64,000 nt of DNA from a bacterium (GCA_025774405.1 JALGWB010000001.1:16609-80608); one strand, 5' to 3'. Counted from the first letter of the stretch, positions 31,718 to 47,918 are shown. Notes: generated by a model not told the origin, from the sequence alone. Numbers and translations are program-made.

Positions 31718-31779
31718 TAACTTAGCCCCACTAGAACCTAGACCCACTAGAGAATGTTTGATAACTTTGAGGAGGGAAA

Positions 31780-33185: not shown

Positions 33186-33221
33186 GTTTAGCGAGATACA
33201 CCTTCTACTGGGAGGAAGACA

Positions 33222-33800
33222 ATGACGAGAATACGTTCCTGGTTCCGAGACACAGTTGAACGAATAGTTGAAGACCATCTTGAGAGTCGCTTTGTTGAGA
33301 TGCGTGGCGAGCTCTCCTCGAGTATCAGCCAGACCCAGAACGGCCTAGCTGCCGAGATCAAAGAGCGAGAAGACCGCATTCTGGGCCAATTGAAGAATAC
33401 CGAGAAGGCTATCCAGAGACGTCTCAAAGGCCAACTCACCTACTACCTTGAGAAGAAAATCAAGGCTCCTGATATCCTGGTTCAGGAGGAGCTCCAGCCT
33501 GAAATCGGAACTGACTATATCTTGGTAAACCTCGAGGTGAAAAACAACCAGCCTATCATGTTTGGGGGCAATCTGAATCTGGCCAATCTTGGGCGAGGGG
33601 ACGCCGTGAATCTCGTCTGTCTTTATACCGATCATAAGGGTTCTGAGTCCACCTTCTTCAGACATGAAATCAGAGGCCCGCTTGATGACCCTTTCTACAT
33701 TGTTGAGCCTCAAGTAGTAACTGCGGGAGCGAGAATAGTCTTCCGAGCTCTGCAGGGGCGCTCTCGACCTTTTACTTACTGCTTTTATCGCTGGATATAG
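33222..33800 (+). CDS. hypothetical protein
   Basis: 192-aa ORF between terminase and the portal candidate. Confidence 0.45.
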   Translation: MTRIRSWFRDTVERIVEDHLESRFVEMRGELSSSISQTQNGLAAEIKEREDRILGQLKNTEKAIQRRLKGQLTYYLEKKIKAPDILVQEELQPEIGTDYILVNLEVKNNQPIMFGGNLNLANLGRGDAVNLVCLYTDHKGSESTFFRHEIRGPLDDPFYIVEPQVVTAGARIVFRALQGRSRPFTYCFYRWI

Positions 33801-33842
33801 TTGTTGCGAATAGACTGATGGCGCAGGGGGCTCTGCTAAGTT

Positions 33843-35303: not shown

Positions 35304-36781
35304 TGCAAATTGGTCTTTTGCTTAGCTCCAAACACCATGCTGAGATGTTAGCATCTGGTAACAAGACCATGCTCATCAGAGCGAGGCGTTTCTACCGCTA
35401 TGTCCGCATACCAGTCTACCTGCTGGCTGATCAGAAGTGTTATGCCAAGATGGTTCTTGGGTCTCCCCAAAAAATAGACCTGAGTGGGTTTAGAGCATTG
35501 CGGAGTCAACACAGAGTAACTGAAAAGGAAAGGGAGCAACAGTGGCCTGACGAACTAGACTTCTACAGCTATAAAGTCCAGGTTCTCGAAACTTACGATC
35601 CGCCTAAGAAGGTTAAGTTCCCTCCCACCTCTCAGGCTTGGGTACGCCATTGGGAATGGTTAGACCGCCCTCCCAAGGAGCTCCATCTTGAGAAGGTGGC
35701 TGACCTAGAACACTATCATCCGTCCAAGATTCCTGACACAGCACGCGGCAGTGCTATCCTCAGGGACGACGCTCGGCTACTCTTGGCCTACTGGTCGTCA
35801 AAACGGTCAGGCAAGGATGTCAAATATACCTACGACCTCTTGGAGCAGAAGTACACAGCCATCCTCCGTGAACTCGTTCGCAGGAGAGCAGCTCAGTTCA
35901 GTCCTCAGAACTATAAGCCTCATGCTAGAGATCTATTTGACAGAGCTGCGCGAACCCTCCAGTTGGAAGGTATTACTGTCCCACTCAGAAAGAGCTCGCA
36001 TCTGAAAGGACTCACAGCCCTCCAGAATATGACGGATAAGGAACTCCTGGCTCACCATGACCACTTGCATCAAATGTATGCTGAGGGCAAAGTGACTAAG
36101 GAGAGCATCGTCAATGCTCATATCTTTGCAGTCCAGGCAATGAGACATAGGGGCCTATCTCACAAGATCGAGGATGACCTTGACAGGGAGCTCCAGGGAT
36201 CTGCTGCATCACGCCTCGTCCCCTTCGTCATCATAGACTCAATGGTTTGTCAAACTGGCTCTTCTGTCTACGACATCAGGCCCCCTCACGACTGCGACTT
36301 AGTGATACGCAGCGATGAGGAAGACTCCAAGATGACCGCAGCTATCCTTAAGGCCGTTAACCTCCCTCCATCAACCATCCACCGTATTTATGAACCCAGA
36401 GGCCCCTCCTTTGACTATGTGGCCCTCCTGGATTATGTAGCAGTGCCAGTAGCCTGGAAAGGTACCTGGACGAAGAAGAGCATCCGCCCCGAGGACATCC
36501 CCGAACACTCTTGGGCTATCTATCGGCAGTTGCCTCCTGCCGTCTTAGTCCACGACCCCTTCGTCACTCAAAGCAACAATACTTTCTACGTCCGAGATGC
36601 TCGCCGCAACACTGGCATTGAGATCAAGCTCACCAGGCTGTTAGCGGCTAACCTCTCCTTCCGATGGCGCGGGGAGGACGAAGCCATGGCAGGAACGCCG
36701 CTCTTTAAGTCTTTCCTGATTCCACATATACCTCTGAGGAGGGCCAAAGTCGATGAGCCTTTCTTCCGAAGATACTACTGA
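35303..36781 (+). CDS. hypothetical protein (possible minor head / morphogenesis protein)
   Basis: 492-aa ORF following the portal, start overlapping its stop. Confidence 0.45.
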   Translation: MQIGLLLSSKHHAEMLASGNKTMLIRARRFYRYVRIPVYLLADQKCYAKMVLGSPQKIDLSGFRALRSQHRVTEKEREQQWPDELDFYSYKVQVLETYDPPKKVKFPPTSQAWVRHWEWLDRPPKELHLEKVADLEHYHPSKIPDTARGSAILRDDARLLLAYWSSKRSGKDVKYTYDLLEQKYTAILRELVRRRAAQFSPQNYKPHARDLFDRAARTLQLEGITVPLRKSSHLKGLTALQNMTDKELLAHHDHLHQMYAEGKVTKESIVNAHIFAVQAMRHRGLSHKIEDDLDRELQGSAASRLVPFVIIDSMVCQTGSSVYDIRPPHDCDLVIRSDEEDSKMTAAILKAVNLPPSTIHRIYEPRGPSFDYVALLDYVAVPVAWKGTWTKKSIRPEDIPEHSWAIYRQLPPAVLVHDPFVTQSNNTFYVRDARRNTGIEIKLTRLLAANLSFRWRGEDEAMAGTPLFKSFLIPHIPLRRAKVDEPFFRRYY

Positions 36782-37865
36782 GATTCGTGGTCTCCTGTAT
36801 CGAGATAGGCAGACTAAGGTGGCATTAAGGTTTCTCAAAAGGATAAATGTATCCCTAGAAGCCATTAGGCGAAACCTCGCAAGAGCAGAGGAGGCCCTTG
36901 CGGATGAGCCTCTATCTAGCAATGTGAGACTTCTAGCCGGCAAGTTTCTGCTAGCGGAGGAAGACATCCCTCTGGAGGATTTGGGTATTCTGACAAAGAC
37001 TCCAAATCTAGCCAGCATCATCATTCTGAACTACAATACTCTCAAGATCACCTCTGACTGTATCAAAAGCGTTCTAGCCTTGACTGAATACCCTGCGGAG
37101 ATGATAGTAGTTGATAACGGCAGCACGGATGGCAGTGTGGCCTGGCTCAAGAAACAGAATTACCTAACTTTGATATCTAACAAGAATAACCGTGGCTGGA
37201 CTGCCGCAAACAATCAGGGCATCAGAGTCTCCAAAGGGGCCTACTGCCTGTTACTTAACAGCGATACCATTGTGAGGACAAGGGGCTGGCTCAAAGCCAT
37301 GATTCGCCTCGCTCAGCCCCCTGACGTGGCGACGGTCGGGGCCAAGCTTCTTTACCAAGATGGTACCATTCAGCATATAGGGGGCAGCATCCACGACGTC
37401 AATCCCTTCCATCCCTTTGACGGAGCGCCTGCCGACATTCCCGAATCACTTAAAGTCAGAGAAGTCCCTTTCAACACGGGGGCCTGTCTCCTTATCAAGA
37501 AATCCGTCATCGAGCGGGTGGGCTTACTTGACGAGAAATATGTGTTCGGTTATGGTGATGTGGACTATGGCTTGAGGTGTCTTGAGGCAGGATTTAGGAA
37601 TCTCTACTGTCCATCGTCTATCCTAACTCATCTCTGGGCTTACACTCAGCGAAAAACAGGCAAGTGGATTCCATCTGAGAGCTTTGCCAGGTACAAACAG
37701 AAGTGGACTGACAAGACGCCCGCTCTCTCTAAAAAGGTTGACATGGATTTCAGGTGGCCTGATTCTGCACAGTATATCAGAAGGACTGGTCCGGGCAGTC
37801 ATATAGCAACTATTCGCAAGAAGGAGAGCGCTATGACCTGGGGGGCATTAAATGAAAACCAATGA
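36753..37865 (+). CDS. family-2 (GT-A fold) glycosyltransferase
   Basis: IIILNYNT...EMIVVDNGSTDGS...NRGWTAANNQG...LLNSDT, the typical GT2 N-terminal block. Confidence 0.75.
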   Translation: MSLSSEDTTEIRGLLYRDRQTKVALRFLKRINVSLEAIRRNLARAEEALADEPLSSNVRLLAGKFLLAEEDIPLEDLGILTKTPNLASIIILNYNTLKITSDCIKSVLALTEYPAEMIVVDNGSTDGSVAWLKKQNYLTLISNKNNRGWTAANNQGIRVSKGAYCLLLNSDTIVRTRGWLKAMIRLAQPPDVATVGAKLLYQDGTIQHIGGSIHDVNPFHPFDGAPADIPESLKVREVPFNTGACLLIKKSVIERVGLLDEKYVFGYGDVDYGLRCLEAGFRNLYCPSSILTHLWAYTQRKTGKWIPSESFARYKQKWTDKTPALSKKVDMDFRWPDSAQYIRRTGPGSHIATIRKKESAMTWGALNENQ

Positions 37866-38703
37866 GTTTGAGCCTAAAGTCTTTGTCAAGAACGCAAAGG
37901 AATCTGGGCAGCAGGTATCTCTAACCATGGTCACCTTTAATCGGTGGAATCTCACTCAGCAGAGTCTCTCTTCCATTTTCGAGCACACTCATCTGCCATA
38001 CATTCTGACTGTTGTCGATAACGGGAGCTGGGACGAGACGAGGGAAAACCTACAGGAACTCAGGCGGTCTGGTAAGATTAACAGATTGATTCTTCTCCCC
38101 GAGAACCGAGGCATTGACATGGGGAAGAACTTCGGCCTGCGAGCTACCCAGGGCCAGGCTAGCTGGTACTGCTGTATCGACAACGATATCAGAGTCAGTC
38201 CCTACTGGCTCAGCTACCTCTGCTATACATCTACTCTCCCTCGCCTTGGCATAATCGGCTGCAATGTTCAGGGATTTGGCACTCCTGGAGGCCCGAGCTG
38301 GTTTACACCCACGCACTGGAAAACTGTGAAAGGAGTTGTCCTAGACAACTGCCCTAATCCAGGTGGAATCTATGTCATCAGTGCAACTACATTCGAGAAG
38401 CTAGGCTTCTTCGTTGAGAGGGGCCTCTACGGTCTAGGGGACAGCCAATACTACTCACGGGAGTTTCAACATGGCCTCAGAAGCGTCTATGTGAGAAATG
38501 TCGATTGCAGAGAGATACCTGATGAGGACTTTGTGATGGCAGACGGTACGTCGTATAGGACTTTCAAGGCGACTTCTCACAACTCTATGCGTCAGAAGGT
38601 CAGAGAAATGGCATCTCAAGGCATTGATATCCACCCAAAGCATTACGAGACTAGAGTAACGGCCCAAGAAGTTGAGAAGTATACCTGGACGCCAGAATCA
38701 TGA
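37852..38703 (+). CDS. family-2 glycosyltransferase
   Basis: VSLTMVTFNRWNL...LTVVDNGSWDET...ENRGIDMGKNFG. Confidence 0.7.
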   Translation: MKTNEFEPKVFVKNAKESGQQVSLTMVTFNRWNLTQQSLSSIFEHTHLPYILTVVDNGSWDETRENLQELRRSGKINRLILLPENRGIDMGKNFGLRATQGQASWYCCIDNDIRVSPYWLSYLCYTSTLPRLGIIGCNVQGFGTPGGPSWFTPTHWKTVKGVVLDNCPNPGGIYVISATTFEKLGFFVERGLYGLGDSQYYSREFQHGLRSVYVRNVDCREIPDEDFVMADGTSYRTFKATSHNSMRQKVREMASQGIDIHPKHYETRVTAQEVEKYTWTPES

Positions 38704-38729
38704 CCTTAGATACTTAGGGGTCCCCAACT

Positions 38730-39206
38730 ATGATTTTAGATGCAGGATCAGGCATGGCATCGAACCCAAGAGCCAACATACTCATGGACAAATATCTTCA
38801 AGGAGACAGTACCTCTCGTATAACGGGCACTCTTATGATTCGCAAAGGACAGACTATGATTTGTGGTGACCTTGAGGCCATGCCATTTCTGGATAAGTCC
38901 TTCGACATTGTTATTTGCTCTCAGACGCTCGAACATGTTGATAATCCTGAGAAAGCCTGTGCTGAGTTGGTGCGGGTAGGAAGGAGTGGTTTCATAACTG
39001 CGCCAAACGAGACAGTAGAAAGGCGTCGATATGAGCGTCGCGAGAAGCTCTATCACAAGTGGCTTATCAAGCAACGGGGCACTCACCTCGACTTCTATCT
39101 CAGAAGTCTCGTTCCAAGCCTCCCGATGATGGAGCATCCTAGCCAGGGCGTGGATATGGCTTGGAAAGGGAGCTTCACTTGGTCAGTGTTCAGAGAATCG
39201 CCATGA
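38730..39206 (+). CDS. class I SAM-dependent methyltransferase (Methyltransf_11-like)
   Basis: LEAMPFLDKSFDIVICSQTLEHVDNPEKACAEL post-motif II/III block. Confidence 0.6.
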   Translation: MILDAGSGMASNPRANILMDKYLQGDSTSRITGTLMIRKGQTMICGDLEAMPFLDKSFDIVICSQTLEHVDNPEKACAELVRVGRSGFITAPNETVERRRYERREKLYHKWLIKQRGTHLDFYLRSLVPSLPMMEHPSQGVDMAWKGSFTWSVFRESP

Positions 39207-40195
39207 CAAGACTCCCCAGAGTCCTATTCGTTAGCATAGCTCCGTCTCTCCACACGGAGTTCTGGGCTGCTGGCTTTATGAAGGCCCTTCGCAAAGTTGC
39301 CGTTCCACTGGCTTTCCCTTTCAGGAAAATGGCTCATGACCACGGGGCAGCCTACATGAACGAGACGCTAGTGGAAACTGCTCTGGAGTTTCGTCCTGAC
39401 CTGATCTTTATTAGGAAGGGGGAAAGCATTCTCGGCTCTAGCATTAAGACGCTCAGGGATTCCCTGCCTGCTTATATCATCTACTATTGTGGGGACTTCC
39501 GTCTCAATCCAGTCTCCTTCATCGTCGATATTGGACGATACGCAGATTGTACCATTTTCAACAACGAGGACGAGAAGGTTGCTGATAGATATCAGGTTGC
39601 GGGTGTGAGACATGTGGGTCCTTGGTGGGACGGTGGAATTGACCCAGAAGTCTTTTGCCCGCAAGACGTACCCAGAGCCTGGGACCTAGCCTTCATGGGC
39701 ACTAACGTCCCCTTGCCTCACAGGGGCTATCAGGTACGTCGCCAACTACTGGAGGCTATCGTCGAGAGTAACTACTCTCTTCACATCTTCGGTGGGGCTG
39801 AAGGCTGGAAGTACCTCCACACGAATACCCACCCGTTCGTTTATGGCCCTGCTTTCGCTAAGGCCTGTTCTCAATCGCGTATCACTCTGGGCGTCAATGG
39901 AGTGAACGACATGTATCTGTATGCTTCCTGGCAACGTACTTTCAAGTCAATGGCCAGTGGAGCGTTTCACCTTACTCACTATGTCCCTGGACTGGAGACG
40001 TTCTTTGAGAACCGCAAGCATCTGGTCTGGTTCATCTCCATACCTGAGGCGATGAGTCTCATTGCTTACTATCTCACTCACGACGAGGAACGTGAAGAAA
40101 TAGCCATGGCAGGCCGACAGGAGGTTCTTGCTCACTTCACTTGGGACGATGCTGTCGCAAGGCTTATGAGGATTTGGCAAAGTGACTGCTGTTGA
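39161..40195 (+). CDS. CgeB-like / GT1-type glycosyltransferase
   Basis: C-terminal FKSMASGAFHLTHYVPGLETFFENRKHLVWFISIPEAMSLIAYYLTHDEEREEIAMAGRQEVLAHFTWD parallels the CgeB/DUF3880 spore-glycosylation family. Confidence 0.55.
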   Translation: MERELHLVSVQRIAMTRLPRVLFVSIAPSLHTEFWAAGFMKALRKVAVPLAFPFRKMAHDHGAAYMNETLVETALEFRPDLIFIRKGESILGSSIKTLRDSLPAYIIYYCGDFRLNPVSFIVDIGRYADCTIFNNEDEKVADRYQVAGVRHVGPWWDGGIDPEVFCPQDVPRAWDLAFMGTNVPLPHRGYQVRRQLLEAIVESNYSLHIFGGAEGWKYLHTNTHPFVYGPAFAKACSQSRITLGVNGVNDMYLYASWQRTFKSMASGAFHLTHYVPGLETFFENRKHLVWFISIPEAMSLIAYYLTHDEEREEIAMAGRQEVLAHFTWDDAVARLMRIWQSDCC

Positions 40196-40865
40196 ACAAT
40201 ACCGTAGGGACTTCGCCACGTACATGAGCCTTCCTGGAGCTGAGAGGTGTAGACTCCAAATGTATCCTCGTCTTGAGGATAAGACCGCATCAACTCCCCT
40301 GGATGCCTATTACTTTCGACAAGATACCTGGGCGTTCAAGCGGATAGTAGACCTCAAGCCTAGCAGCATAGTAGATGTAGGATCGACTGCGCTCCTCGTG
40401 GGAATTCTTGCCCAGATGTTTCCTACAACGAGTATCGATATAAGGCCCATTCCAGTATCTCTTCCTGGATTAACATGTAGGCAAGGCTCGATCACTAATC
40501 TCCCCTTCAAAGACGCCTCAGTTGAGCTCCTGAGCAGCCTATGTGTGATAGAGCATATAGGTCTAGGTCGATACGGCGACAAGCTCGATCCGCTCGGTAG
40601 CATCAAAGCCTGCAAGGAGATCTCGAGGGTGCTCAAGCCTGGTGGACATTTCATAATGAGCACTCAAGTGAGTCATACCCCTGCCCTCTGCTTCAATGCG
40701 CACCGAATCTTCACGCAGGCCCAAGTTCTGGATATGTTGCCAGCCTTCTCGGTAACGGATGAGGCGTTCTTCTTCCCTCGGCCTGGCAATGCAGAAGACA
40801 TAGAGGCACTCACGGGTTTCAGGTTCTGCTTCTGGTGCGTAGACTTGGTTAAGGAGTCAGCATGA
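40182..40865 (+). CDS. SAM-dependent methyltransferase (DUF268-like)
   Basis: VDVGSTALLVGILAQ (motif I-like) ... LKPGGHFIMST. Confidence 0.55.
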   Translation: MTAVEQYRRDFATYMSLPGAERCRLQMYPRLEDKTASTPLDAYYFRQDTWAFKRIVDLKPSSIVDVGSTALLVGILAQMFPTTSIDIRPIPVSLPGLTCRQGSITNLPFKDASVELLSSLCVIEHIGLGRYGDKLDPLGSIKACKEISRVLKPGGHFIMSTQVSHTPALCFNAHRIFTQAQVLDMLPAFSVTDEAFFFPRPGNAEDIEALTGFRFCFWCVDLVKESA

Positions 40866-41665
40866 CGCTCTCGGTTGTAACTCCTAGCTACATTAACAAC
40901 CAGCAACGAGCTGATTGGGCCAGAGACTCTCTGGCTTCCCTCAGGGAAACTATCGGCGACGGCTACTTACATGTTGTGGTGCTTGACAAATCCCTTGAAT
41001 GGAATATTATTGCTCAGGCAATCTATAACCAGCCTAATGTAATGCTCATGCAGCGTCCCAAGCCTCTTGGCAATACTTCAGCTTTGCTAAAGGCCGTGAA
41101 GGAATCTCGCAAGTTGGGAGCAGATCTCTGTTTTGTCCATATGGACGATAACATCTATGTCCCCGAATTCGGACCTCTTCTCAGATATGCCCAGGACGCT
41201 TTCAGCAACGATAGGGAGTTGCAAGAAGTGCTCTTTGTTGGCTACCCGATCCTTATAAAGAGGCATAGCAAACCACTTCTTGGCAATCGCACAGGCCTAA
41301 CTATCGAGGAGAATCAAGTCTCTTTCGATACCATACAGTTGCACCCTACTCGCTGTACGGATTATACTCTCTGGTGGTCTTATTTTCATGACCGAATGGT
41401 GGACGGGCGATTTTGGGCAGTTGTCATGTGGATGGCTCTCTACCGAGCTGAGTTCTTGGAGAGTGTCCTTACACTTGCCCCTACGGGCCGGACGCTTGGT
41501 CAGGTTGAATCTTACTACAGAAACAGAAGCAACTGGGAGAGACTATCCCATCGCTTTCCAGGAAAGCTCGGTTACATAAACATGCAGTTCGGCGGTTTGG
41601 AGATGCACCATCATAGTCAGGAATGGTGTGAGATGATCCGTTTTCCTAATACGCCTGTGAGGTGA
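40862..41665 (+). CDS. GT-A-like glycosyltransferase (DxD HMDDN)
   Basis: LSVVTPSYINNQQR...VHMDDNIYVP layout resembles GT-A enzymes. Confidence 0.45.
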   Translation: MTLSVVTPSYINNQQRADWARDSLASLRETIGDGYLHVVVLDKSLEWNIIAQAIYNQPNVMLMQRPKPLGNTSALLKAVKESRKLGADLCFVHMDDNIYVPEFGPLLRYAQDAFSNDRELQEVLFVGYPILIKRHSKPLLGNRTGLTIEENQVSFDTIQLHPTRCTDYTLWWSYFHDRMVDGRFWAVVMWMALYRAEFLESVLTLAPTGRTLGQVESYYRNRSNWERLSHRFPGKLGYINMQFGGLEMHHHSQEWCEMIRFPNTPVR

Positions 41666-41701
41666 GACATATAGGAGAAGACTTACCTGTGAGGTGAAGG
41701 A

Positions 41702-42340
41702 ATGACTTACAGAGAGAATCCAGAACTAGGTCAGGACATGGTTAAGTTTGCCTTTCATCGTTGGCAGCAAGGAGAATATCTCTTAGAGCCTCCTCAGCGT
41801 CAAATCTACGAGAATATTGCGGTCAGAGCGAAAGGCAAGACGGTCTGTGATATAGGCTCTGGAGCGGGACTGGGAACTACTATCCTAGCACAAAGGGCTC
41901 AGTCAGTTATTGGCATCGAGAAGGTTGCGTCTTCCGTCAGGTTCTCTAGGAAATGTCATCCCCTAACAAATGTGCAGTTTCTGAATGAGGATATAGGGAA
42001 GTGCTCTCTTTCTGACAACAGTTTCGATGTAGTGGTGGCGGTTGAGGTGATAGAGCATATCGCAAACTACCAGGCAGCACTGGATCAGATGGCTCGAATT
42101 CTGAAAGAGTCTGGAACCCTATACATCTCGTCTCCTAACAGGAATCAAGATATTAGAGGAGGAGCGTCAGGCGCAGGCCCGCCAAGGAACAAGTATCATG
42201 TTCGAGAGTGGACAGCCGAGGAGTTTCGGCATATTCTTCTCTCGCGCTTCAGTCAGGTTAGGCTTTCTGACTATACCCTTGACCCTTGCCTAGACTCCTG
42301 TACGCGAGTCTCGCCAGTTATCGCGATCTGTCGAATATGA
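41702..42340 (+). CDS. class I SAM-dependent methyltransferase
   Basis: Motif I VCDIGSGAGLGT, then FDVVVAVEVIEHIANYQAAL...LKESGTLYISSPN. Confidence 0.7.
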   Translation: MTYRENPELGQDMVKFAFHRWQQGEYLLEPPQRQIYENIAVRAKGKTVCDIGSGAGLGTTILAQRAQSVIGIEKVASSVRFSRKCHPLTNVQFLNEDIGKCSLSDNSFDVVVAVEVIEHIANYQAALDQMARILKESGTLYISSPNRNQDIRGGASGAGPPRNKYHVREWTAEEFRHILLSRFSQVRLSDYTLDPCLDSCTRVSPVIAICRI

Positions 42341-43005
42341 GAACTCTGTGGATCGTTATTCCAGCAAAAGATGAGGCTGCTACTATTGCAGACCTAGTTG
42401 CCGAAGCCGCCCACTACGGAACGGTGTTAGTAGTTACCAGTGGGCCTTCAGACGATACTGGCCCAAGAGCTGCCAGCGCGGGAGCCCAGGTAATCTACAA
42501 CGGCCAGAGCATTGCAGGAAAGATAGTCACTGGCTGGCAGAGAGCCCTCGACAACAATGCGACACGAGTCATAGTCATGGATGCAGGCGGATCGCATAGG
42601 CCATCAGATATCCCCCGTCTCCTGGCAGCAGAGGCTGACATCGTAATAGGCAGTCGGTTTGTGGCTGGAGGCCAATATCATGGCAGATCGTGGCGCAGGG
42701 TATGCAGTCAAGTCATGGCTCTGCTCTGCAACCTAGCCCAACCAGGTAAACAGGTCCATGACTGGTCTAGCGGCTTCAGGTGTTATTCGGTAGAAGCAAT
42801 TGGGCAGCTACTAGCCGTCCATTATAAATCTGATATGCACGCTTGGCAAATCGAGGTGCTAGGCTGGGCTAGGCGCTTGCACCTTTCAGTTGAGGAAGTC
42901 CCTATACAGTATACTGCTGGGCACTCGTCTCTCTCCTGGGATGGGGCTCTCAGGGCTCTCAATATATTGTTAGACATCTTGCTCCGCAGGTGGGTAGTCG
43001 GATGA
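42286..43005 (+). CDS. family-2 glycosyltransferase, DPM1/GtrB-like (polyprenyl-phosphate sugar transferase type)
   Basis: LWIVIPAKDEAATI...VVTSGPSDDTG...RVIVMDAGGSHRPSDIPRLL...DIVIGSRF. Confidence 0.7.
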   Translation: MPRLLYASLASYRDLSNMRTLWIVIPAKDEAATIADLVAEAAHYGTVLVVTSGPSDDTGPRAASAGAQVIYNGQSIAGKIVTGWQRALDNNATRVIVMDAGGSHRPSDIPRLLAAEADIVIGSRFVAGGQYHGRSWRRVCSQVMALLCNLAQPGKQVHDWSSGFRCYSVEAIGQLLAVHYKSDMHAWQIEVLGWARRLHLSVEEVPIQYTAGHSSLSWDGALRALNILLDILLRRWVVG

Positions 43006-44075
43006 TATTCTACCTTGATACATACATTACTGACGAGCCTCTCCATCCTGCGTTTGTTTGGCCAAACAGGGAGATCAGGAACTCCTGTCCCCAGTATAAG
43101 ATGCCACGGAGAATAGATATCACAAAGTACACGCTTGCGAGTTATAAGATGATTCCGTGGACACATGTTGTCATCGCATACGATGTTGCTGATAAGGATG
43201 ATGAAAGCACGTTCCTGGACTTTGTGCAAGAAGTTTTCCCAGACGCAGATGTTAGTCGGCCTCGCTCCTCTAACCAGAAGACGTACAGGGCAAGAGTGGA
43301 GCAAGTTTGCAGTTTTGAGGATGACTTCATCTTTTATGCACCTAACAACGATCATCCCCTCATAGCAAGCAATCTCAATCACCTGCCCAAGTTACTCAAA
43401 AAGGCTTCAAGGTTCTCACAAAACTACCCATTTGTCTCCGTTGTCTACTCGCACTTCAGTGAGTTCGTCAACGCGCCTGTCGTTGGGAGTCCTTTCTACA
43501 GACAGTTCTCTAGCGACTCACGCATAGTAGAAGACGACGAGATTGCTACGAGCTTTGTGAGATTCAATGGCGACAACTCTTCTATCCAGATCGTCAATAG
43601 GAATCTCCTGCAACACTGGTTTTGCTCACATGATCTCGGTGATGCCAGAATCATCAGAGCAGAAGATGTTCGCAGGTTTCTTCCAACTCCTAACCAGTTG
43701 ATGATAGTGCCCAAGAAGGAGCTCTGTGCGCACTTTGACGGCTACTCGCATACAACTGGTATCACTAAGATCAGTCCTGACCAGATTCCTCCTCTATTCA
43801 TTCCAACAGGGTTCTTCGACAGCTCGATTCGGATCGCCTACGGATATCCAGAATACCGAGATGGCTGGGTAAACATAAACCCTTCTGCGAGGGATTTCAG
43901 TTTCCGCGACCGAAAGACGGGCACAGATCTGAAAATTGGTCTTCAGGACATACCTCTTTTCTGGAAGAGCAGAATCGCAGAAATAGACATCAATGTGAAT
44001 GCCGACCTCGAGCGAATTAAGGAGGGCAGAGAGAAATACTTTGAGACAGTTCGTAACCCCTGGAGGAAAGCCTAG
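42990..44075 (+). CDS. hypothetical protein inside the glycosylation cluster
   Basis: 361-aa ORF, no motif recognised. Confidence 0.45.
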   Translation: MGSRMIFYLDTYITDEPLHPAFVWPNREIRNSCPQYKMPRRIDITKYTLASYKMIPWTHVVIAYDVADKDDESTFLDFVQEVFPDADVSRPRSSNQKTYRARVEQVCSFEDDFIFYAPNNDHPLIASNLNHLPKLLKKASRFSQNYPFVSVVYSHFSEFVNAPVVGSPFYRQFSSDSRIVEDDEIATSFVRFNGDNSSIQIVNRNLLQHWFCSHDLGDARIIRAEDVRRFLPTPNQLMIVPKKELCAHFDGYSHTTGITKISPDQIPPLFIPTGFFDSSIRIAYGYPEYRDGWVNINPSARDFSFRDRKTGTDLKIGLQDIPLFWKSRIAEIDINVNADLERIKEGREKYFETVRNPWRKA

Positions 44076-44650
44076 TGATCAAGTTGCATATAGGCTGTGG
44101 CCCCAGAGTGCTAAAGGGATGGATAAATATCGATCTCAAGTTCACTCCTTACCAGGCGTACCTGAAATACTACACTGACAAGTACTACCCAGAGTCCGCT
44201 AGGGGCGACAAGTCAGATTTTCTTGCACTAGATGTGTCTAGGCAGCCTTTGCCCTTTCCTGACAATTCGGTAGATGTCGTCTTCCATGAGGACTTCCTTG
44301 AGCACCTGAACCAGCGTAGCCAAGTTCTCTTCCTAGCTGATTCTCTCCGAGTCTTGAAGCCAGACTCCATTCATCGAATTGATACGCCTAACCTGTTAGC
44401 ATCGATGCGCGATCACTCTAATTTCTCCCTTGGCTTTCAGGGTGTCTATGTCCATGAGTGGGATAAGTCCAAGCATCTCAATGTATTGACCCCTAGCTCG
44501 CTTGAAGAGATGGCTCTTATGGTTGGATATTCAACAGTAGTCTTCACAGGTAGAAACCAAAGTGCGTCGCCTCTGATTCCGCCTGAGTATCGCCCTGATC
44601 CAAGAGATCGGCCCGAGAACGGAAACATCTTTGCAGATTTGGTTGCTTAG
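44075..44650 (+). CDS. SAM-dependent methyltransferase
   Basis: HIGCGPRVLKGWINID (motif I) ... LRVLKPDSIHRIDTPN. Confidence 0.55.
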   Translation: MIKLHIGCGPRVLKGWINIDLKFTPYQAYLKYYTDKYYPESARGDKSDFLALDVSRQPLPFPDNSVDVVFHEDFLEHLNQRSQVLFLADSLRVLKPDSIHRIDTPNLLASMRDHSNFSLGFQGVYVHEWDKSKHLNVLTPSSLEEMALMVGYSTVVFTGRNQSASPLIPPEYRPDPRDRPENGNIFADLVA

Positions 44651-45539
44651 GAGTAGCGCCTTGAGGATATTTGTTCTTCCTGTGTCGTCTCAGTTTCAAC
44701 CTCCTCCCATGAAGATTCTCTATCCTCCTCACAACAAGCGAGACTACGGCATTGAGCAAGACTTCGCTCAGCATCTCACAGAGCCTTCTAGTGACTGGAC
44801 GATCGCAGAGTCTTCTGACGTTGCTGATTGGCATTACCTTCCTATCTACTGGACACGTTACCATGTGACACATAACTATGCCAAGACTGGCCTAGAAGCA
44901 CTTCAGCGTGAAGTTGCCCGAAGAATCATTGACGACAAAAGGACCTTTACAATTTGCCAGTATGATGATGGGCCTTTGGTAGACCTTGGTAGAACTGTGC
45001 AGTTTCTAGGGTCTCGCAAAGGGGAAGAAGGCATCGACGTCCCTCTTCTTTCCTATCCTCATAAGCTCCCTGCAGTTGATCCCCCTAAACAGTGGTTAGC
45101 GTCTTTTGCAGGGAGACTCCGAACGCACGAGGTTCGCGCAGACATGCAGCGTGTTCTGGGGCCTCGCCAGGACATTGACATTCAGGACACACGCAAAACC
45201 AGTAGATTCTTTGTAGACTTGATCCTTCGGTCGTATGTTTCCCTCTGTCCCAGGGGATGGGGTGGCTCGTCTTTTAGGTTTTATGAATCTATGCAACTGG
45301 GAGTAGTGCCCCTTCTCATTGGCAGCATAGACACCCGCCCCTTCAAACGTTTCCTGAACTGGAGTATAATGAGTCTCTATGCTCGCACGGCCGAGGAAGC
45401 AAATGTGTCCCTCGACTCCCACACTCTGACAGAATTGCTAGAGATGGGGCGATGTGCCAAGAAAGCCTGGCATCAAGATCTATCGTTTGGGCACTGGCAC
45501 AAGTATGTGTTTCAGGAATTGGAGGCTCTATGGCATTAA
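44631..45539 (+). CDS. exostosin-like (GT47-type) glycosyltransferase
   Basis: SLCPRGWGGSSFRFYESMQLGVVPLLIG closely matches the exostosin C-terminal catalytic block. Confidence 0.6.
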   Translation: MQIWLLRSSALRIFVLPVSSQFQPPPMKILYPPHNKRDYGIEQDFAQHLTEPSSDWTIAESSDVADWHYLPIYWTRYHVTHNYAKTGLEALQREVARRIIDDKRTFTICQYDDGPLVDLGRTVQFLGSRKGEEGIDVPLLSYPHKLPAVDPPKQWLASFAGRLRTHEVRADMQRVLGPRQDIDIQDTRKTSRFFVDLILRSYVSLCPRGWGGSSFRFYESMQLGVVPLLIGSIDTRPFKRFLNWSIMSLYARTAEEANVSLDSHTLTELLEMGRCAKKAWHQDLSFGHWHKYVFQELEALWH

Positions 45540-46984
45540 AGCACCATCAGCACTCTCTACAGGCCGAGGCGGTATGGGGGAAAGCCTACGGCGTGTTTGA
45601 TCGAATTGTTCAGTTGAGAGGTTTCAGGACTGGCGTCGAGGTTGGCGTTGCTTTTGGAGGGCACATAGAAGCACTTCTCAACATCCCCACTATTGAGAAG
45701 GTCTATGGAGTTGATCCCTATCAGCAAACAGGAACTAGCAGCTCCTTGGGCCTCTCGCAGTCTGAGATGGATACCCTCTATCTCTTCGTTCTGAACAGAC
45801 TTGCCCCGTTTGGCGATCGTTACCAGCCTGTACGAAAAAGCTCGGTAGAGGCATCGTCTATCATCCCGCAGGAGATTGATTTCGTCTACATAGACGCTGA
45901 CCATTCCTACCAGGAAGTTATGGCGGATCTCTGTGCTTGGTTTCCCAAAGTACGCGAAGGCGGGATAATTGGCGGCCATGACTATTCTCATCCTGACTTG
46001 CCAGGAGTTAAGAAAGCCGTGGATAGATTCTTCAGTCGGTTTGCTCAGCGCGTTCACTCACTAGGCGAATATGTCTGGTGGATAGAGAAGAAGATGCCCA
46101 GCATCAGCTTCGTATTGCCTGCATACAACTGCGCTGAGTTCGTCGAGGAGTCTGTGAAGTCTATTCAGAAGGGGAACTTTGAAGATGGCGACGAGCTCAT
46201 CATTGTTGACGATGGCTCATCTGACAATACCCTGATGATTTTGCAGAGACTGGCCGCGTACTATCCCTCAATAAGGCTTCTCAAACACGACAGTAATAGG
46301 GGCGCATCAGCAGCCAGGAATACAGCGATAGCCAGTGCCAAGAACTCCCTACTCTTCAACCTAGACTCAGATAATATCCTAGTGCCAGGCAGCATCCCCA
46401 AACTCAAAACATATTTGATTAGCTCCAATGCTGATATAGCAGTGTTCGAGGAGACGCGTTTCTTTAGAAACGGAACTGGCCAGATAACACACAGCTGGAA
46501 GTATGGCCCAGGTCTGTTGACTCTATCCGACTGCTTGGCTGGCCAAATAACTCCTGGGGCTAGTGGGAACTATATGTTCACTAAGGAGTCCTGGGCCAAA
46601 GCTGAAGGTTACCCTGAGTTCGCAAAGACCTATGAAACCTGGGGATTCGCCTTCAGGCAGCTAGCCACAGGCTCCAAAATGATGGCAATGCCCGACTCTT
46701 TCTATCTCCATAGGTATGGCCATTCGTCACTCTGGGTGCGAGAAGGAGGAAATCGGAACGCTTCTCGGAAAACTCTAAAGATGATTCTGCCCTTTCTTGG
46801 CCTGCTTGACTACAAGGACGTTGAATACATAATGAGCCACAAGGAGACCTGGCTTACTAACTTATCTCAGCACCCAATACGAGTCAAGGGGAGCGCTCCT
46901 GGGAATTCGGGCAGCATCAAACTCCAGAGCCCTCCACTTGACTATATGGAGCTTTTGTGTCAGAATATAGACGAGGAGACATAA
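45530..46984 (+). CDS. bifunctional TylF/MycF-like O-methyltransferase (N-terminus) and GT2 glycosyltransferase (C-terminus)
   Basis: N-terminus GVEVGVAFGG...FVYIDADHSYQEVMADL...GGIIGGHDY (Methyltransf_24 pattern); C-terminus SISFVLPAYNCAEF...LIIVDDGSSDNT...NRGASAARN. Start set to the internal Met MALKHHQ. Confidence 0.65.
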   Translation: MALKHHQHSLQAEAVWGKAYGVFDRIVQLRGFRTGVEVGVAFGGHIEALLNIPTIEKVYGVDPYQQTGTSSSLGLSQSEMDTLYLFVLNRLAPFGDRYQPVRKSSVEASSIIPQEIDFVYIDADHSYQEVMADLCAWFPKVREGGIIGGHDYSHPDLPGVKKAVDRFFSRFAQRVHSLGEYVWWIEKKMPSISFVLPAYNCAEFVEESVKSIQKGNFEDGDELIIVDDGSSDNTLMILQRLAAYYPSIRLLKHDSNRGASAARNTAIASAKNSLLFNLDSDNILVPGSIPKLKTYLISSNADIAVFEETRFFRNGTGQITHSWKYGPGLLTLSDCLAGQITPGASGNYMFTKESWAKAEGYPEFAKTYETWGFAFRQLATGSKMMAMPDSFYLHRYGHSSLWVREGGNRNASRKTLKMILPFLGLLDYKDVEYIMSHKETWLTNLSQHPIRVKGSAPGNSGSIKLQSPPLDYMELLCQNIDEET

Positions 46985-47571
46985 TGATTGACTACAAGAC
47001 AACCGCTGGTTTCTCCCTGACACTTGAGGAGCGTGAGTTCCTCAAAGACTCTGCTGAGGGCTCTGGCTCCATTGTCAGTATCGAGTCTGGCCCCTGCGCT
47101 GCGCTATGGTGCTTCAGGGCAGGCGCGCCTGAGTCTTCCATCTACAGCGTGAAGGAGCAAGGATCGATCATAGATGGTGATCCAGGAGTAACTATCCTTA
47201 GTGGCTTTTCTGACTTCCCTGGAAACTCTGTAGACCTGCTCTTCATAGATGGCTCACATGCTTTCAAGGATGTTCTACTCGACTTAGTTACTTGGCAAGA
47301 TAGCATCCCGCTGAAAGGCTTAGTGGTCCTTCACGACTATGAGCACAACAATATGCCTGAAGTTAAGCTGGCTACTGAGTTCTGGCTCAAGAACGTCACC
47401 AGGAAAACCTGGCAGCCGATTGAGGCTCCTGGCTCTCTCTTTGCCCTCAGGCGTATTGCTCGTGGGAGGAAGCCAGCTGTTGTCCCCGTAGAGGCCCTCA
47501 AGGAACAGCACGCTGAGCAAGAGAGCGTATCAGAGAAGGCAACCGGCCAAGTGGACCCTAGACAGGACTGA
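46984..47571 (+). CDS. TylF/MycF-like (Methyltransf_24) SAM-dependent O-methyltransferase
   Basis: LLFIDGSHAFKDVLLDLVTWQDSIPLKGLVVLHDY; TAATG stop/start overlap with the upstream gene. Confidence 0.6.
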   Translation: MIDYKTTAGFSLTLEEREFLKDSAEGSGSIVSIESGPCAALWCFRAGAPESSIYSVKEQGSIIDGDPGVTILSGFSDFPGNSVDLLFIDGSHAFKDVLLDLVTWQDSIPLKGLVVLHDYEHNNMPEVKLATEFWLKNVTRKTWQPIEAPGSLFALRRIARGRKPAVVPVEALKEQHAEQESVSEKATGQVDPRQD

Positions 47572-47582
47572 GGAGGGAATAG

Positions 47583-47912
47583 ATGAGGTACTGCCCCATG
47601 TGCGACATCGCTTTGGGCTCACCTGAAGCCCACAAGACCGAATGGTTCTATCATTCAAGGGCAGTTACTATCGTTGAAGACCTTGATCCCAAGGGCTATG
47701 TCCTAAGGCTCTTGGGCGTACCTCGCAAACATTTCGACTGTGAGGCTACAGGGGAGCTTATAGCAGCGATCCGCCAACAGACCATTGAGATAGCCTTAGG
47801 TGTAGCGCGGGCAATATGTCTGGAGCGAGGGCTAGCAATTGCCCAGATCGATACTGAGCATCATTCATTCAGAGATCACTGGCATCTCCAGGTCTGTCTG
47901 AGTTTGAGGTGA
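47583..47912 (+). CDS. HIT-like small protein (N-terminal CPMC, C-terminal HWHLQ)
   Basis: 109 aa; partial histidine-triad pattern (H-x-H-x-Q) and N-terminal CxxC as in some HIT proteins; weak. Confidence 0.3.
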   Translation: MRYCPMCDIALGSPEAHKTEWFYHSRAVTIVEDLDPKGYVLRLLGVPRKHFDCEATGELIAAIRQQTIEIALGVARAICLERGLAIAQIDTEHHSFRDHWHLQVCLSLR

Positions 47913-47918
47913 AAACCT

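What the first reader, a model, noticed from the sequence alone, without database searches (positions are those of the whole stretch)
36753..47912. An ~11 kb glycosyltransferase plus SAM-methyltransferase cluster inserted between portal/head-morphogenesis genes and the protease-capsid genes
Thirteen consecutive, translationally coupled ORFs carry about 8 glycosyltransferase domains: GT2 x4 including a DPM1/GtrB-like polyprenyl-phosphate type, a CgeB-like GT, an exostosin/GT47-like GT, a GT-A-like protein and a GT2 fused to a methyltransferase. They also carry 6 class-I SAM methyltransferases, two of the TylF/MycF sugar-O-methyltransferase type, plus a HIT-like protein. They sit in the middle of the virion-assembly operon, and a further GT1 gene lies between the connector and tail-tube genes. 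Phage GTs normally act singly on DNA or in O-antigen conversion cassettes; a cluster this large inside the structural module points to a phage-encoded pathway that builds a complex, O-methylated glycan. Such a glycan would most plausibly sit on virion proteins (capsid or tail tube), by analogy with the few known glycosylated phage capsids and with spore-surface glycosylation systems that use CgeB-like GTs and methylated rhamnose. The content seen here (GT47-like, CgeB-like, multiple TylF-like MTs, MT-GT fusion) goes far beyond those examples.
Basis: partly seen in the sequence, partly recalled or inferred. Interest (0 to 1): 0.92.

Follow-up and report, generated by a model that had tools for sequence, protein, structure and literature searches.

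The report
Phage head-operon glycan and methylation gene cluster
An uncultured 87-kb phage carries 14 sugar-adding and sugar-methylating enzyme genes in the middle of its head-assembly operon, most likely to coat its own particle with a heavily methylated sugar chain, which is a much larger, unrelated version of a small cassette already known in some mycobacteriophages.

Summary
Window 36753-47912 holds 14 (not 13) co-oriented, mostly overlapping ORFs with 8 glycosyltransferase (GT) domains and 6 class-I SAM methyltransferases (MTs). They lie between portal and a protease/scaffold/capsid fusion, and a further GT1 gene overlaps the tail-tube start by 4 nt. In 65 distant relatives the portal-to-capsid spacing has a median of 2.3 kb; here it is 17.7 kb.

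The "TylF/MycF" and "HIT-like" labels were not reproduced. No protein has a convincing transmembrane segment. No transporter, flippase, priming transferase or DNA-base hydroxymethylation enzyme was found in the ~72 kb checked.

Three related uncultured phages keep the left-hand core but swap the right-hand module. The window's right-hand four-gene block is syntenic (44-59% aa) with ABC-transporter-type polysaccharide loci.

The best reading (about 0.55) is cytoplasmic glycosylation of virion proteins with an O-methylated glycan. It is positionally analogous to Corndog gp35-38, but no sequence similarity to those genes was found by tblastn. The main rival is remodelling of a host lipid-linked surface glycan.

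I rate it a new variant of a known kind.

The parts
33873..35303 (+). Portal protein (left boundary of the insertion).
   Evidence: phrog_10963 portal, E 1e-34. The start comes from the JGI gene call. Its orthologue in the relative is 66% identical.
35303..36781 (+). 492-aa lineage-specific protein that always precedes the cluster. It overlaps the first GT2 gene by 29 nt. Function unknown.
   Evidence: Only 5 homologues exist; the two with fetched context sit in the same slot in related phage contigs. No Pfam, PHROG or NCBIfam hit. The AF2 model is poor, pLDDT 55. A G[SG]-x10-DxD nucleotidyltransferase-like motif is seen by eye only.
36753..37865 (+). GT2 glycosyltransferase number 1 (conserved core).
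   Evidence: Pfam Glycos_transf_2, 9e-24. Sub-cut-off NCBIfam 'rhamnosyltransferase' hit, 4e-14. Remote homologues are named WbbL-type rhamnosyltransferases by JGI. It is 51-74% identical in four related phage-like contigs.
37852..38703 (+). GT2 glycosyltransferase number 2 (conserved core).
   Evidence: Pfam GT2, 2e-17. It is 53-66% identical in L004, L092, L095 and L096.
38730..39206 (+). Short class-I SAM methyltransferase.
   Evidence: Methyltransf_11, 4e-13. Motif I (ILDAGSG) sits at residues 2-8.
39203..40195 (+). GT-B glycosyltransferase of the Glyco_trans_1_2 (CgeB-like) family.
   Evidence: PF13524, 2e-25. The relative has a 53% identical orthologue plus a paralogue.
40182..40865 (+). 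DUF268/Methyltransf_11 methyltransferase.
   Evidence: Pfam, 2e-12 and 2e-8. Its orthologue is 68% identical.
40862..41665 (+). 267-aa divergent GT2-like (GT-A) protein.
   Evidence: Sub-threshold GT2 match over profile positions 1-104 (E 0.02; orthologue 0.0011). The N-terminal 'VVTPSY' and the 'DDN' motif are seen by eye.
41702..42340 (+). Class-I SAM methyltransferase.
   Evidence: Methyltransf_31, _11 and _23 at 2e-20 to 7e-17. Best NCBIfam similarity is to the UbiG O-MT, below its cut-off.
42337..43005 (+). DPM1/PpgS/AglJ-like GT2. It is the first gene of the window-specific right-hand module.
   Evidence: Pfam GT2 at the cut-off, 23.3 bits. NCBIfam PpgS 4e-18 over positions 2-223 of 226 and AglJ 5e-16, both far below their cut-offs. 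No orthologue in the relative.
43002..44075 (+). 357-aa member of an uncharacterised, well-conserved GT-A-fold family.
44075..44650 (+). Methyltransf_11 methyltransferase, paired with the 357-aa GT.
   Evidence: Pfam, 1e-7. It is 57% identical to the adjacent gene in L087. In several homologues the 357-aa domain and an MT11 domain are fused in one protein.
44709..45539 (+). Exostosin/GT47-like glycosyltransferase.
   Evidence: PF03016, 3e-17. It is 50% identical to the L087 gene and 52-60% identical in the relative phage. It is 28% identical to a gene of Synechococcus phage S-SKS1.
45530..46984 (+). Methyltransf_24-GT2 fusion protein.
   Evidence: PF13578, 4e-13, and PF00535, 7e-27. It is 44% identical to the MT24-GT2(-MT21) fusion in L087. 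The GT2 part gives 1e-18 against K4CP chondroitin synthase in the PDB.
46984..47571 (+). Methyltransf_24 methyltransferase.
   Evidence: PF13578, 2e-9.
47583..47912 (+). 109-aa protein, function unknown. A HIT-like motif is visible but not verified.
   Evidence: No Pfam hit at E<=5. A CxxC...HxHxQ motif is seen by eye. BLASTP E 0.39 against HINT1.
47919..51950 (+). 1343-aa fusion of ATP-dependent DNA ligase, Dam-type N6-adenine DNA methyltransferase and a C-terminal XkdF/S78_2-like domain. It forms the right boundary and is not part of the glycan pathway.
   Evidence: Pfam 6e-22, 1e-17 and 9e-8. PHROG hits. The relative has a 64-71% identical orthologue.
52314..54992 (+). 892-aa zinc-ribbon, protease/scaffold and HK97-type major capsid fusion. 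It is a candidate glycan acceptor.
   Evidence: Phage_capsid_4, 8e-36. phrog_29592, 7e-129. Alignment.
56324..57487 (+). GT-B (GT1/GT4-like) glycosyltransferase whose stop overlaps the tail-tube start codon by 4 nt.
   Evidence: Pfam Glyco_trans_1_2 (25.3 bits) and Glyco_trans_1_4. phmmer finds 14,246 homologues. The orthologue in the relative is 62% identical and in the same position. No match in Mae-JY22.
57484..58440 (+). Tail tube protein. It is a candidate glycan acceptor and has the highest Ser+Thr content (19%) of the late proteins examined.
   Evidence: Phage_tube_2, 4e-21. Ser+Thr content. Alignment.

Best explanation
The cluster is a phage-encoded cytoplasmic glycosylation pathway. 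It is expressed with the head and tail genes late in infection and decorates virion proteins with a hetero-oligosaccharide in which most residues are O-methylated. The major capsid protein and the tail tube protein are the most likely acceptors.

Proposed mechanism (inferred):
- One initiating transferase attaches the first sugar from a host NDP-sugar to the folded or assembling structural protein. Candidates are the conserved core GT2 pair, the CgeB-like GT, or, for the tail tube, the GT1 coupled to its gene.
- The remaining GTs extend the chain. They only need a sugar acceptor.
- The MT encoded next to each GT, or fused to it, methylates the newly added residue. The gene order is GT,GT,MT,GT,MT,GT,MT,GT,GT,MT,GT,MT-GT,MT.

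The pathway is modular. The left-hand core (the 492-aa protein through the MT at 41702, plus GT47) was inherited vertically in this phage lineage. The right-hand module is exchangeable, and in this phage it was captured from an ABC-transporter-type polysaccharide locus without the transporter.

Shown here: gene content, arrangement, conservation, modularity and the absence of membrane or export components. Inferred: the acceptor, the sugar identities and the biological role (shielding or stabilising the particle, or changing its surface properties).
For: 1. Eight GT domains and six small-molecule-type SAM MTs lie in 14 tightly packed genes.
2. The cluster is embedded in the late operon. It overlaps the upstream gene by 29 nt and lies 6 nt from the downstream gene. 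Terminator-like sites do not exceed the shuffled expectation (14 found, 15.7 expected).
3. A separate GT1 gene overlaps the tail-tube start codon by 4 nt and is conserved at that spot in the relative.
4. No protein has a convincing transmembrane segment (maximum Kyte-Doolittle 19-residue mean 1.67). No Wzm/Wzt, Wzx/Wzy, WecA/WbaP, GtrA/GtrC or ligase is called on the parts of the 87-kb genome examined.
5. There is a precedent in the same slot. Corndog has portal gp34, MT gp35, GT gp36-38, protease gp39 and capsid gp41. Papers citing Freeman et al. 2023 report that these modify capsid and tail tube.
6. The core is as diverged between the two phages (47-74% aa) as the structural genes are (57-71%). 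This indicates long co-inheritance under selection.
7. The right-hand module differs between relatives. One carries a PglD-like acetyltransferase, two DegT aminotransferases and a GNAT. Others carry an ABC importer, a cytidylyltransferase-like gene and a radical-SAM/SPASM gene. Such turnover is expected for an exposed glycan under diversifying selection.
8. In another phage contig (L096) the same GT2 pair follows the large terminase directly.
9. The cluster is dispensable for this capsid type. It is absent from 80 relatives and from Mae-JY22.
Against: - No acceptor site, glycan or glycoprotein has been observed, because the phage is known only from metagenomes.
- No recognisable dedicated protein-glycosyltransferase family was found (OGT/GT41, HMW1C or Maf type).
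- The closest homologues of four genes (44-59% aa, same order) lie in loci with Wzt-type ABC transporters, where such enzymes act on undecaprenyl-linked glycans. Soluble GTs are normal in that pathway too, so the absence of transmembrane segments does not discriminate.
- One GT2 resembles polyprenyl-phosphate sugar synthases.
- There is no detectable sequence similarity to the Corndog cassette, so the analogy rests on position only.
- Freeman et al. 2023 could not be read. Its content is taken from citing papers.
- About 15 kb of the genome was not inspected.
Confidence: 0.55

Rival explanations
1. The cluster remodels a lipid-linked host envelope polysaccharide. The soluble phage GTs and MTs would extend or cap an undecaprenyl-PP-linked chain at the inner face of the membrane. 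The host's own priming transferase, ABC transporter and ligase would then display the altered, methyl-capped glycan. The effect would be to block superinfection or to stop progeny adsorbing to debris.
For: - The block 43002-46984 (GT-A family, MT11, GT47, MT24-GT2) is syntenic and 44-59% identical to loci that carry ABC_tran+Wzt_C or ABC2_membrane together with sugar-nucleotide enzymes.
- Enzymes of ABC-transporter-dependent O-polysaccharide pathways are soluble or peripheral, and methyl groups are known chain terminators in that pathway (established knowledge).
- The GT2 at 42337 resembles the PpgS/AglJ/DPM1 polyprenyl-phosphate transferases.
- Published cyanophage genomes with many GTs are usually interpreted as modifying the cell wall.
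Against: - The cluster sits inside the head-assembly operon with overlapping stop and start codons and no sign of its own promoter or terminator. That is the wrong timing for lysogenic conversion, and late for export before lysis.
- Known conversion cassettes such as GtrABC include membrane proteins, and none is present here.
- The extra GT1 is coupled to the tail-tube gene.
- The conserved core half has no such cellular syntenic counterpart among the loci examined.
- The donor-like loci have 29-35% GC against 51% for the phage, so they are unlikely to be the host's own locus.
Confidence: 0.2
2. The enzymes make or modify something else in the cytoplasm. Possibilities are a soluble polymethylated polysaccharide or glycoside (as in mycobacterial methylglucose or methylmannose polysaccharides), glycosylation of non-structural or internal phage proteins (for example the 492-aa or 1343-aa proteins), or glycosylation of host proteins.
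For: - All enzymes are soluble.
- The alternating GT/MT order resembles the logic of polymethylated polysaccharide synthesis (established knowledge).
- The DPM1-like GT2 also gives a weak hit to glucosyl-3-phosphoglycerate synthase (3e-7).
- The lineage-specific 492-aa protein is always the first gene of the block.
Against: - There is no known phage precedent.
- There is no rationale for placing such a pathway between portal and capsid, or for coupling a further GT to the tail tube.
- The variable module contains amino-sugar enzymes of the kind typical of surface glycans.
Confidence: 0.12
3. The GTs glycosylate phage DNA (hypermodified bases) to evade restriction, and the MTs further modify the sugars.
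For: - Phage GTs, including GT-A types, can build di- and trisaccharides on 5hmC.
- The cluster is flanked by a protein that carries DNA ligase and Dam domains.
Against: - DNA-glycan pathways cluster with C5-MT plus 5mYOX/TET or with ThyS-like hydroxymethylases. No such domain was found in about 72 kb of the 87-kb genome.
- There is no hit to the T4 alpha- or beta-GT families.
- The nearest homologues are polysaccharide enzymes.
- The MTs are small-molecule class-I types.
Confidence: 0.03
4. The arrangement is an assembly chimera or decaying cargo with no function.
For: The sequence comes from a metagenome assembly. The MT at 38730 is short, and GT2 number 1 lacks the first GT2 domain that is present in the relatives' 603-617-aa fused proteins.
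Against: - The same arrangement is found on three contigs carrying identical proteins.
- It recurs in independently assembled relatives from other samples.
- All 14 ORFs are intact, and the shared ones are 47-74% identical across diverged phages.
Confidence: 0.02

Closest known systems
Cluster O mycobacteriophage (Corndog) virion glycosylation cassette gp35-gp38. The cluster F (Che8) and cluster C (Myrna) systems are related.
   Same: The genes are phage-encoded O-methyltransferase and glycosyltransferase genes in the same slot, between portal and capsid protease or capsid, co-oriented with the late operon. They are reported to modify capsid and tail-tube subunits. The enzymes themselves were not found in virions.
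   Different: - Corndog has 4 genes (1 MT and 3 GTs), against 14 genes plus a separate GT1 here.
- There is no detectable sequence similarity (tblastn E >= 0.2 for all cluster genes).
- The structural module is unrelated (HK97-type protease-capsid fusion).
- The genome has 51% GC, and its closest cultured relative by capsid is a Microcystis phage at 30% identity.
- The cluster has an exchangeable module and synteny with cellular polysaccharide loci.
- Glycosylation has not been demonstrated here.
ABC-transporter-dependent (Wzm/Wzt) polysaccharide or O-antigen biosynthesis loci.
   Same: The four-gene block (GT-A family, MT11, GT47, MT24-GT2) has the same order and 44-59% aa identity. Both use soluble GTs and methyltransferases. 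Methyl capping is a hallmark of this pathway (established knowledge).
   Different: The phage copy lacks Wzm/Wzt, a priming transferase, a ligase and sugar-nucleotide synthesis genes. It lies in a virion assembly operon.
Chlorovirus PBCV-1 capsid glycosylation machinery (multidomain GT-GT-MT enzyme A064R and partners) and giant-virus fibril glycosylation clusters.
   Same: These viruses encode cytoplasmic GTs and MTs, including GT-MT fusions, that build methylated glycans on the viral capsid or surface independently of host machinery. This rests on my own knowledge of the field; the relevant reviews were listed but not read.
   Different: They are eukaryotic giant viruses with unrelated capsids, and homology was not tested here. 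In the phage the genes sit inside the head operon rather than dispersed or in separate clusters.
GtrABC and other prophage O-antigen conversion cassettes.
   Same: They are phage-encoded GT2 enzymes of the DPM1/GtrB kind that act on surface glycans.
   Different: Those cassettes need GtrA (flippase) and GtrC (a membrane GT-C), lie next to the attachment site and are expressed in lysogens. No membrane protein is present here, and the location is in the late operon.

Membership tests
Actinobacteriophage virion glycosylation cassette (Corndog gp35-38 type) | Phage-encoded O-methyltransferase plus glycosyltransferases located between the portal gene and the capsid protease or capsid genes of the late operon. 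| tested here: met
   for the window. for Corndog.
Actinobacteriophage virion glycosylation cassette (Corndog gp35-38 type) | Sequence homology to Corndog gp35-gp38. | tested here: not met
   tblastn of all window late proteins against Corndog 13000-25000 gave no cluster gene with E < 0.19. Structure-level comparison was not done.
Actinobacteriophage virion glycosylation cassette (Corndog gp35-38 type) | Glycans demonstrated on capsid and tail-tube subunits. | not testable with these tools
   This needs mass spectrometry or glycoprotein staining of virions. The phage is uncultured.
Actinobacteriophage virion glycosylation cassette (Corndog gp35-38 type) | An actinobacterial host. | tested here: inconclusive
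   The host is unknown. The window has 51% GC. The best cultured capsid relative is a Microcystis phage at 30% identity. There are no tRNAs and no match in GenBank phages.
GtrABC O-antigen conversion | GtrA flippase, GtrB with C-terminal transmembrane helices, and a polytopic GtrC. | tested here: not met
   No Pfam GtrA or GT-C hits. No convincing transmembrane segment in any cluster protein.
DNA-base glycosyltransferase pathways (T4 alpha/beta-GT; 5mYOX- or ThyS-associated GTs) | T4-type GT families, or co-location with C5-MT plus 5mYOX/TET or a ThyS-like hydroxymethylase. | tested here: not met
   No such Pfam hits in the cluster or in about 72 of the 87 kb. About 15 kb was not inspected.
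ABC-transporter-dependent polysaccharide locus | Soluble GTs and MTs homologous to, and syntenic with, those of such loci. | tested here: met
   Four genes are 44-59% identical and in the same order as in L087/L088.
ABC-transporter-dependent polysaccharide locus | Wzm/Wzt transporter and a polyprenyl-phosphate priming transferase in the locus. | tested here: not met
   None appears in the gene calls and Pfam hits of L086, L093 and L094.
TylF/MycF sugar O-methyltransferases (claimed for two MTs) | A match to the TylF family profile or to solved TylF/MycF proteins. | tested here: not met
   Only Methyltransf_24 was hit. No TylF or MycF entry appeared in the PDB sequence searches.
HIT superfamily (claimed for the 109-aa ORF) | A profile match and the histidine triad HxHxHxx. 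| tested here: inconclusive
   No Pfam hit at E<=5. BLASTP E 0.39 against HINT1. Only CxxC and an HxHxQ motif are seen by eye.

The most novel reading that the evidence does not exclude
Environmental tailed phages outside the Actinobacteria would carry O-antigen-like 'virion serotype' loci. Each would have a vertically inherited core of GTs and MTs in the head operon, plus an exchangeable module captured from cellular polysaccharide loci. Together they would coat capsid and tail with a long, almost fully O-methylated and strain-variable glycan.
Probability: 0.4. Interest if true: 0.8.

Novelty: new variant of a known kind. Interest (0 to 1): 0.58.

Why it matters
If the product really sits on the virion, particle glycosylation would not be a peculiarity of a few mycobacteriophages. 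It would be a broader phage strategy, evolved independently and on a far larger scale, with modular and swappable chemistry like bacterial O-antigens. That would bear on phage stability, adsorption, grazing and immune recognition, and on engineering phage surfaces.

The cluster also flags a large, well-conserved, uncharacterised GT-A family. All of its named members come from CPR bacteria and DPANN archaea, and it is repeatedly fused to a methyltransferase. That pairing makes it a candidate 'add-then-methylate' enzyme unit worth biochemical study.

If the cluster instead remodels the host envelope from within the late operon, that would be an unusual timing and location for surface conversion.

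Tried and rejected
- Megablast of the cluster against GenBank phages found nothing.
- tblastn of GT2 number 2 and of the CgeB-like GT against phages found nothing.
- A metagenome scan with the 1343-aa protein gave only one weak hit.
- IMG/VR scans with the MT-GT2 fusion and with the GT2 number 2 alignment gave no new relatives.
- NCBIfam gave no family above its cut-off for any cluster protein.
- Single-sequence PDB searches of the unknown ORFs were uninformative.
- A profile of the 357-aa family against PDB sequences found nothing. Its fold was found only through a structure comparison.
- The structure prediction for the 492-aa protein was too poor to use, with pLDDT 55.
- Two contig look-ups were wasted on ORFs with the wrong start codon. 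One of them (62565-63989, minus strand) is a spurious ORF inside a 1477-aa + strand tail gene.
- Freeman et al. 2023 is not held in the library.
- The afdb50 fold library was unavailable.
- Rfam found nothing in the window, including around the split terminase.
- The tail-tube and capsid alignments with Mae-JY22 (22-33% identity) were too divergent to identify lineage-specific acceptor loops reliably.
- I considered and rejected GtrABC-type conversion, DNA glycosylation and assembly artefact. The reasons are given under the rivals.

Full report
**1. What is there**

The window is 64 kb of an uncultured tailed phage. Identical proteins occur on JGI contig Ga0366832_1000270 (87,282 bp). That contig begins and ends inside the same gene, so the genome is a circular or permuted assembly.

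The genome has two arms.
- The minus-strand arm (about 1-30.7 kb) carries replication and recombination genes: an ERCC4 nuclease, a PD-(D/E)XK nuclease, a helicase, an N6/N4 DNA methylase and a RuvB-like ATPase.
- The + strand late operon starts near 30.8 kb.

The late operon reads as follows:
- A large terminase split into two ORFs.
- Portal (33873-35303).
- A 492-aa protein found only in this lineage.
- Fourteen genes from 36753 to 47912.
- A 1343-aa fusion of DNA ligase, Dam methylase and an XkdF-like domain.
- An 892-aa zinc-ribbon, protease/scaffold and HK97-type capsid fusion.
- Two head-tail proteins.
- A GT1-like gene (56324-57487).
- The tail tube gene (57484-58440), followed by the tail genes.

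**2. Check of the observation**

Profile searches confirm six glycosyltransferase (GT) domains at or above Pfam thresholds:
- GT2 at 36753.
- GT2 at 37852.
- GT2 in the fusion protein at 45530.
- The CgeB-like Glyco_trans_1_2 at 39203.
- Exostosin/GT47 at 44709.
- A DPM1/PpgS-like GT2 at 42337, exactly at the cut-off.

Two more are GT-A enzymes on weaker grounds.
- The 267-aa ORF (40862) gives a sub-threshold GT2 match, as does its orthologue.

Six class-I SAM methyltransferases (MTs) are confirmed.

Two details of the finding were not reproduced.
- The two Methyltransf_24 proteins give no TylF/MycF match.
- The 109-aa ORF has only an eye-visible CxxC...HxHxQ motif. It has no Pfam hit at E<=5, and BLASTP against HINT1 gives E 0.39.

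There are 14 genes, not 13. Nine of the 13 internal junctions overlap and the other four are 11-58 nt. Terminator-like sites do not exceed the shuffled expectation.

**3. Is it an insertion?**

Eighty prophage-like loci from very diverse bacteria encode the same protease-capsid fusion at 29-40% identity. In the 65 that also show the portal, the portal-to-capsid distance has a median of 2.3 kb (5-95%: 0.34-4.1 kb). Here it is 17.7 kb. None of the 80 has tblastn-detectable homologues of any cluster gene.

The closest cultured phage by capsid is Microcystis phage Mae-JY22 (30% identity). In the same search it shows no match to any cluster gene or to the GT1 gene. So the 492-aa gene, the cluster and the 1343-aa gene are accessory additions to a widespread head module.

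**4. Relatives and modularity**

One related virus is represented by IMG/VR UViG_3300029813_000617, which matches JGI Ga0311296_1204309. Its structural proteins are 57-71% identical to the window's, and it has a cluster in the same place.

The genes it shares with the window are:
- the 492-aa gene;
- GT2 number 1 (74%; there it is fused to a second GT2);
- GT2 number 2 (63%);
- the CgeB-like GT (53%, plus a paralogue);
- an MT11;
- the 267-aa GT2-like gene (47%);
- the MT at 41702 (56%);
- the DUF268 MT (68%);
- GT47 (52-60%);
- an MT24;
- the GT1 in front of the tail tube (62%).

The core is therefore as old as the lineage.

The right-hand end differs. The relative carries a PglD-like acetyltransferase, two DegT/EryC1 aminotransferases, a GT2 and a GNAT, which are amino-sugar nucleotide enzymes. 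The window instead carries the DPM1-like GT2, the GT-A family protein, MT11, the MT24-GT2 fusion and the 109-aa ORF.

A third relative (L092) has portal, the 498-aa protein and GT2s. These are followed by an MT, a cytidylyltransferase-like gene, an ABC ATPase with a binding protein, an SDR and an adenylate-forming enzyme.

Two further phage-like contigs share the GT2 pair at 51-67% identity. In one of them (L096) the cluster starts directly after the large terminase (phrog_38, 1e-81).

The cassette has no close counterpart in GenBank phages. It is rare in IMG/VR.

**5. Origin of the right-hand module**

The genes at 43002-46984 are, in order, the GT-A family protein, MT11, GT47 and the MT24-GT2 fusion. 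They are 59, 57, 50 and 44% identical to four adjacent genes in the same order on low-GC contigs (L087/L088, 29% GC). Those contigs also encode an ABC ATPase with a Wzt C-terminal domain, STELLO, GT6 and GT11 transferases, a cytidylyltransferase and an epimerase. A second locus (L089) adds the ABC-2 permease and GDP-sugar enzymes.

These are ABC-transporter-type polysaccharide loci. The phage took the glycan-building enzymes but not the transporter. A dip in GC to 0.474 at 43-45 kb fits a later acquisition.

In several homologues the GT-A domain and an MT11 domain are fused. This mirrors the adjacent gene pair in the phage and the MT24-GT2 fusion. It argues that each MT acts on the product of its neighbouring GT.

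**6. What it most likely does**

Four observations bear on the target.
- Every enzyme is predicted soluble.
- No exporter, flippase, polymerase, ligase or priming transferase is present in the ~72 kb inspected.
- The genes are fused into the head operon, and a further GT is coupled to the tail-tube gene.
- The one experimentally studied analogue occupies the same slot. In Corndog an O-methyltransferase and three GTs lie between portal and protease. Papers citing Freeman et al. 2023 report that these modify capsid and tail tube and reduce antibody recognition.

I therefore favour cytoplasmic glycosylation of virion proteins with an oligosaccharide that is methylated on most residues (confidence about 0.55). 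The alternating gene order (GT,GT,MT,GT,MT,GT,MT,GT,GT,MT,GT,MT-GT,MT) suggests this methylation pattern. Only the initiating enzyme would need protein specificity, so elongating enzymes borrowed from a lipid-linked pathway are compatible with this reading.

The steps that are inferred and not shown are the acceptor, the sugars and the benefit. Weak rhamnosyltransferase-like similarity of GT2 number 1 is the only hint about the sugars.

**7. Rivals**

(a) Remodelling of a host undecaprenyl-linked surface glycan using host priming and export (about 0.2).
- For: the synteny with ABC-transporter loci and the PpgS-like GT2.
- Against: the late-operon embedding, the GT coupled to the tail tube, and the lack of any membrane partner.

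(b) Another cytoplasmic product or a non-virion protein target (about 0.12).

(c) DNA glycosylation (about 0.03). Such pathways cluster with C5-MT plus 5mYOX or with ThyS. None was found.

(d) Artefact (about 0.02). This is excluded by independent assemblies.

**8. Comparison with known systems and novelty**

The cluster works like the actinobacteriophage virion-glycosylation cassettes but is not a member of that family. The position is the same, yet tblastn finds no similarity. The structural module is unrelated, and the host is probably not an actinobacterium.

It is partly derived from ABC-transporter-type polysaccharide loci but lacks their defining transporter. It also recalls, by analogy only, the chlorovirus and giant-virus capsid glycosylation machineries with GT-MT fusions.

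Phages with many GTs are on record, for example 13 in a cyanomyovirus, read there as cell-wall or DNA modification.

New here are four things:
- the scale (14 genes, 8 GT domains and 6 MTs, plus a ninth GT at the tail tube);
- the core-plus-exchangeable-module architecture across related phages;
- the demonstrable capture of a cellular polysaccharide block;
- the occurrence in an unrelated phage lineage.

I rate it a new variant of a known kind, with interest 0.58.

Noticed in passing
window 47919-51950: A 1343-aa single ORF fuses an ATP-dependent DNA ligase (residues 134-316), a Dam-type D12 N6-adenine DNA methyltransferase (510-734), about 450 residues with no match, and a C-terminal XkdF/Peptidase_S78_2-like domain (1200-1308). 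It lies directly upstream of the capsid gene. The related phage has a 1507-aa orthologue (64-71% identity). It may be a capsid-targeted, injected 'polyvalent' DNA-protection protein.
   Followed up: partly
window 52314-54992: The major capsid protein is an 892-aa fusion. Its lineage-specific N-terminal ~210 residues hold three to four CxxC zinc ribbons. Then come a protease-like/scaffold part, a Pro/Glu-rich linker (about residues 418-445) and the HK97-type capsid domain (586-888). Distant relatives start at about residue 212.
   Followed up: partly
window 30857-33185: The large terminase is split into an ATPase ORF (30857-31717) and a nuclease ORF (32253-33185), with an unassigned 162-aa ORF (31780-32268) between them. 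The related phage shows the same split, and L092 has a LAGLIDADG gene just upstream of its portal. No Rfam intron was detected.
   Followed up: partly
window 35303-36781: The 492-aa protein is found only in this phage lineage and always sits between portal and the first GT2. By eye the N-terminus looks ASCH/PUA-like. The C-terminus has a 'TGSxVY...PHDCDLVIR' motif like those of minimal nucleotidyltransferases. The AlphaFold model was too poor (pLDDT 55) to test this.
   Followed up: partly
window 43002-44075; proteins P0001-P0120: This is a large, well-conserved protein family (42-72% identity) with no Pfam model and a GT-A fold. All of its named members come from CPR bacteria and DPANN archaea, and it is repeatedly fused to a Methyltransf_11 domain.
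   Followed up: yes
L092 9169-10970; L095 15526-18049; L096 9757-13545: Related phage-like GT clusters contain a complete or partial ABC importer of the NMT1/SsuA-type (ATPase, binding protein, permease). They also contain a SPASM radical-SAM protein, a cytidylyltransferase-like gene and an AMP-binding enzyme. This is unusual content for a phage glycan locus.
   Followed up: no
window ~56428-56541: The 87,282-bp JGI contig starts and ends inside the GT1 gene with about 114 nt of overlap. This indicates a circular or terminally redundant genome, and the window is a different permutation of it.
   Followed up: partly
window 30000-49999: Sigma-70-like promoter matches are about twice the shuffled expectation (34 found, 15.1 +/- 4.6 expected). 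They include a strong divergent pair at 30779-30842, at the switch between the two arms. Their significance inside the cluster is unknown.
   Followed up: no
window 27773-28513 and 29628-30155: An HNH-AP2 domain protein (a putative homing endonuclease) and a DUF5662 protein (E 8e-41) lie just upstream of the late operon.
   Followed up: no
window 62565-63989 (- strand): The 474-aa minus-strand ORF in the mechanical ORF list is spurious. It lies inside a 1477-aa + strand gene, probably the tape measure, that runs off the end of the window.
   Followed up: yes
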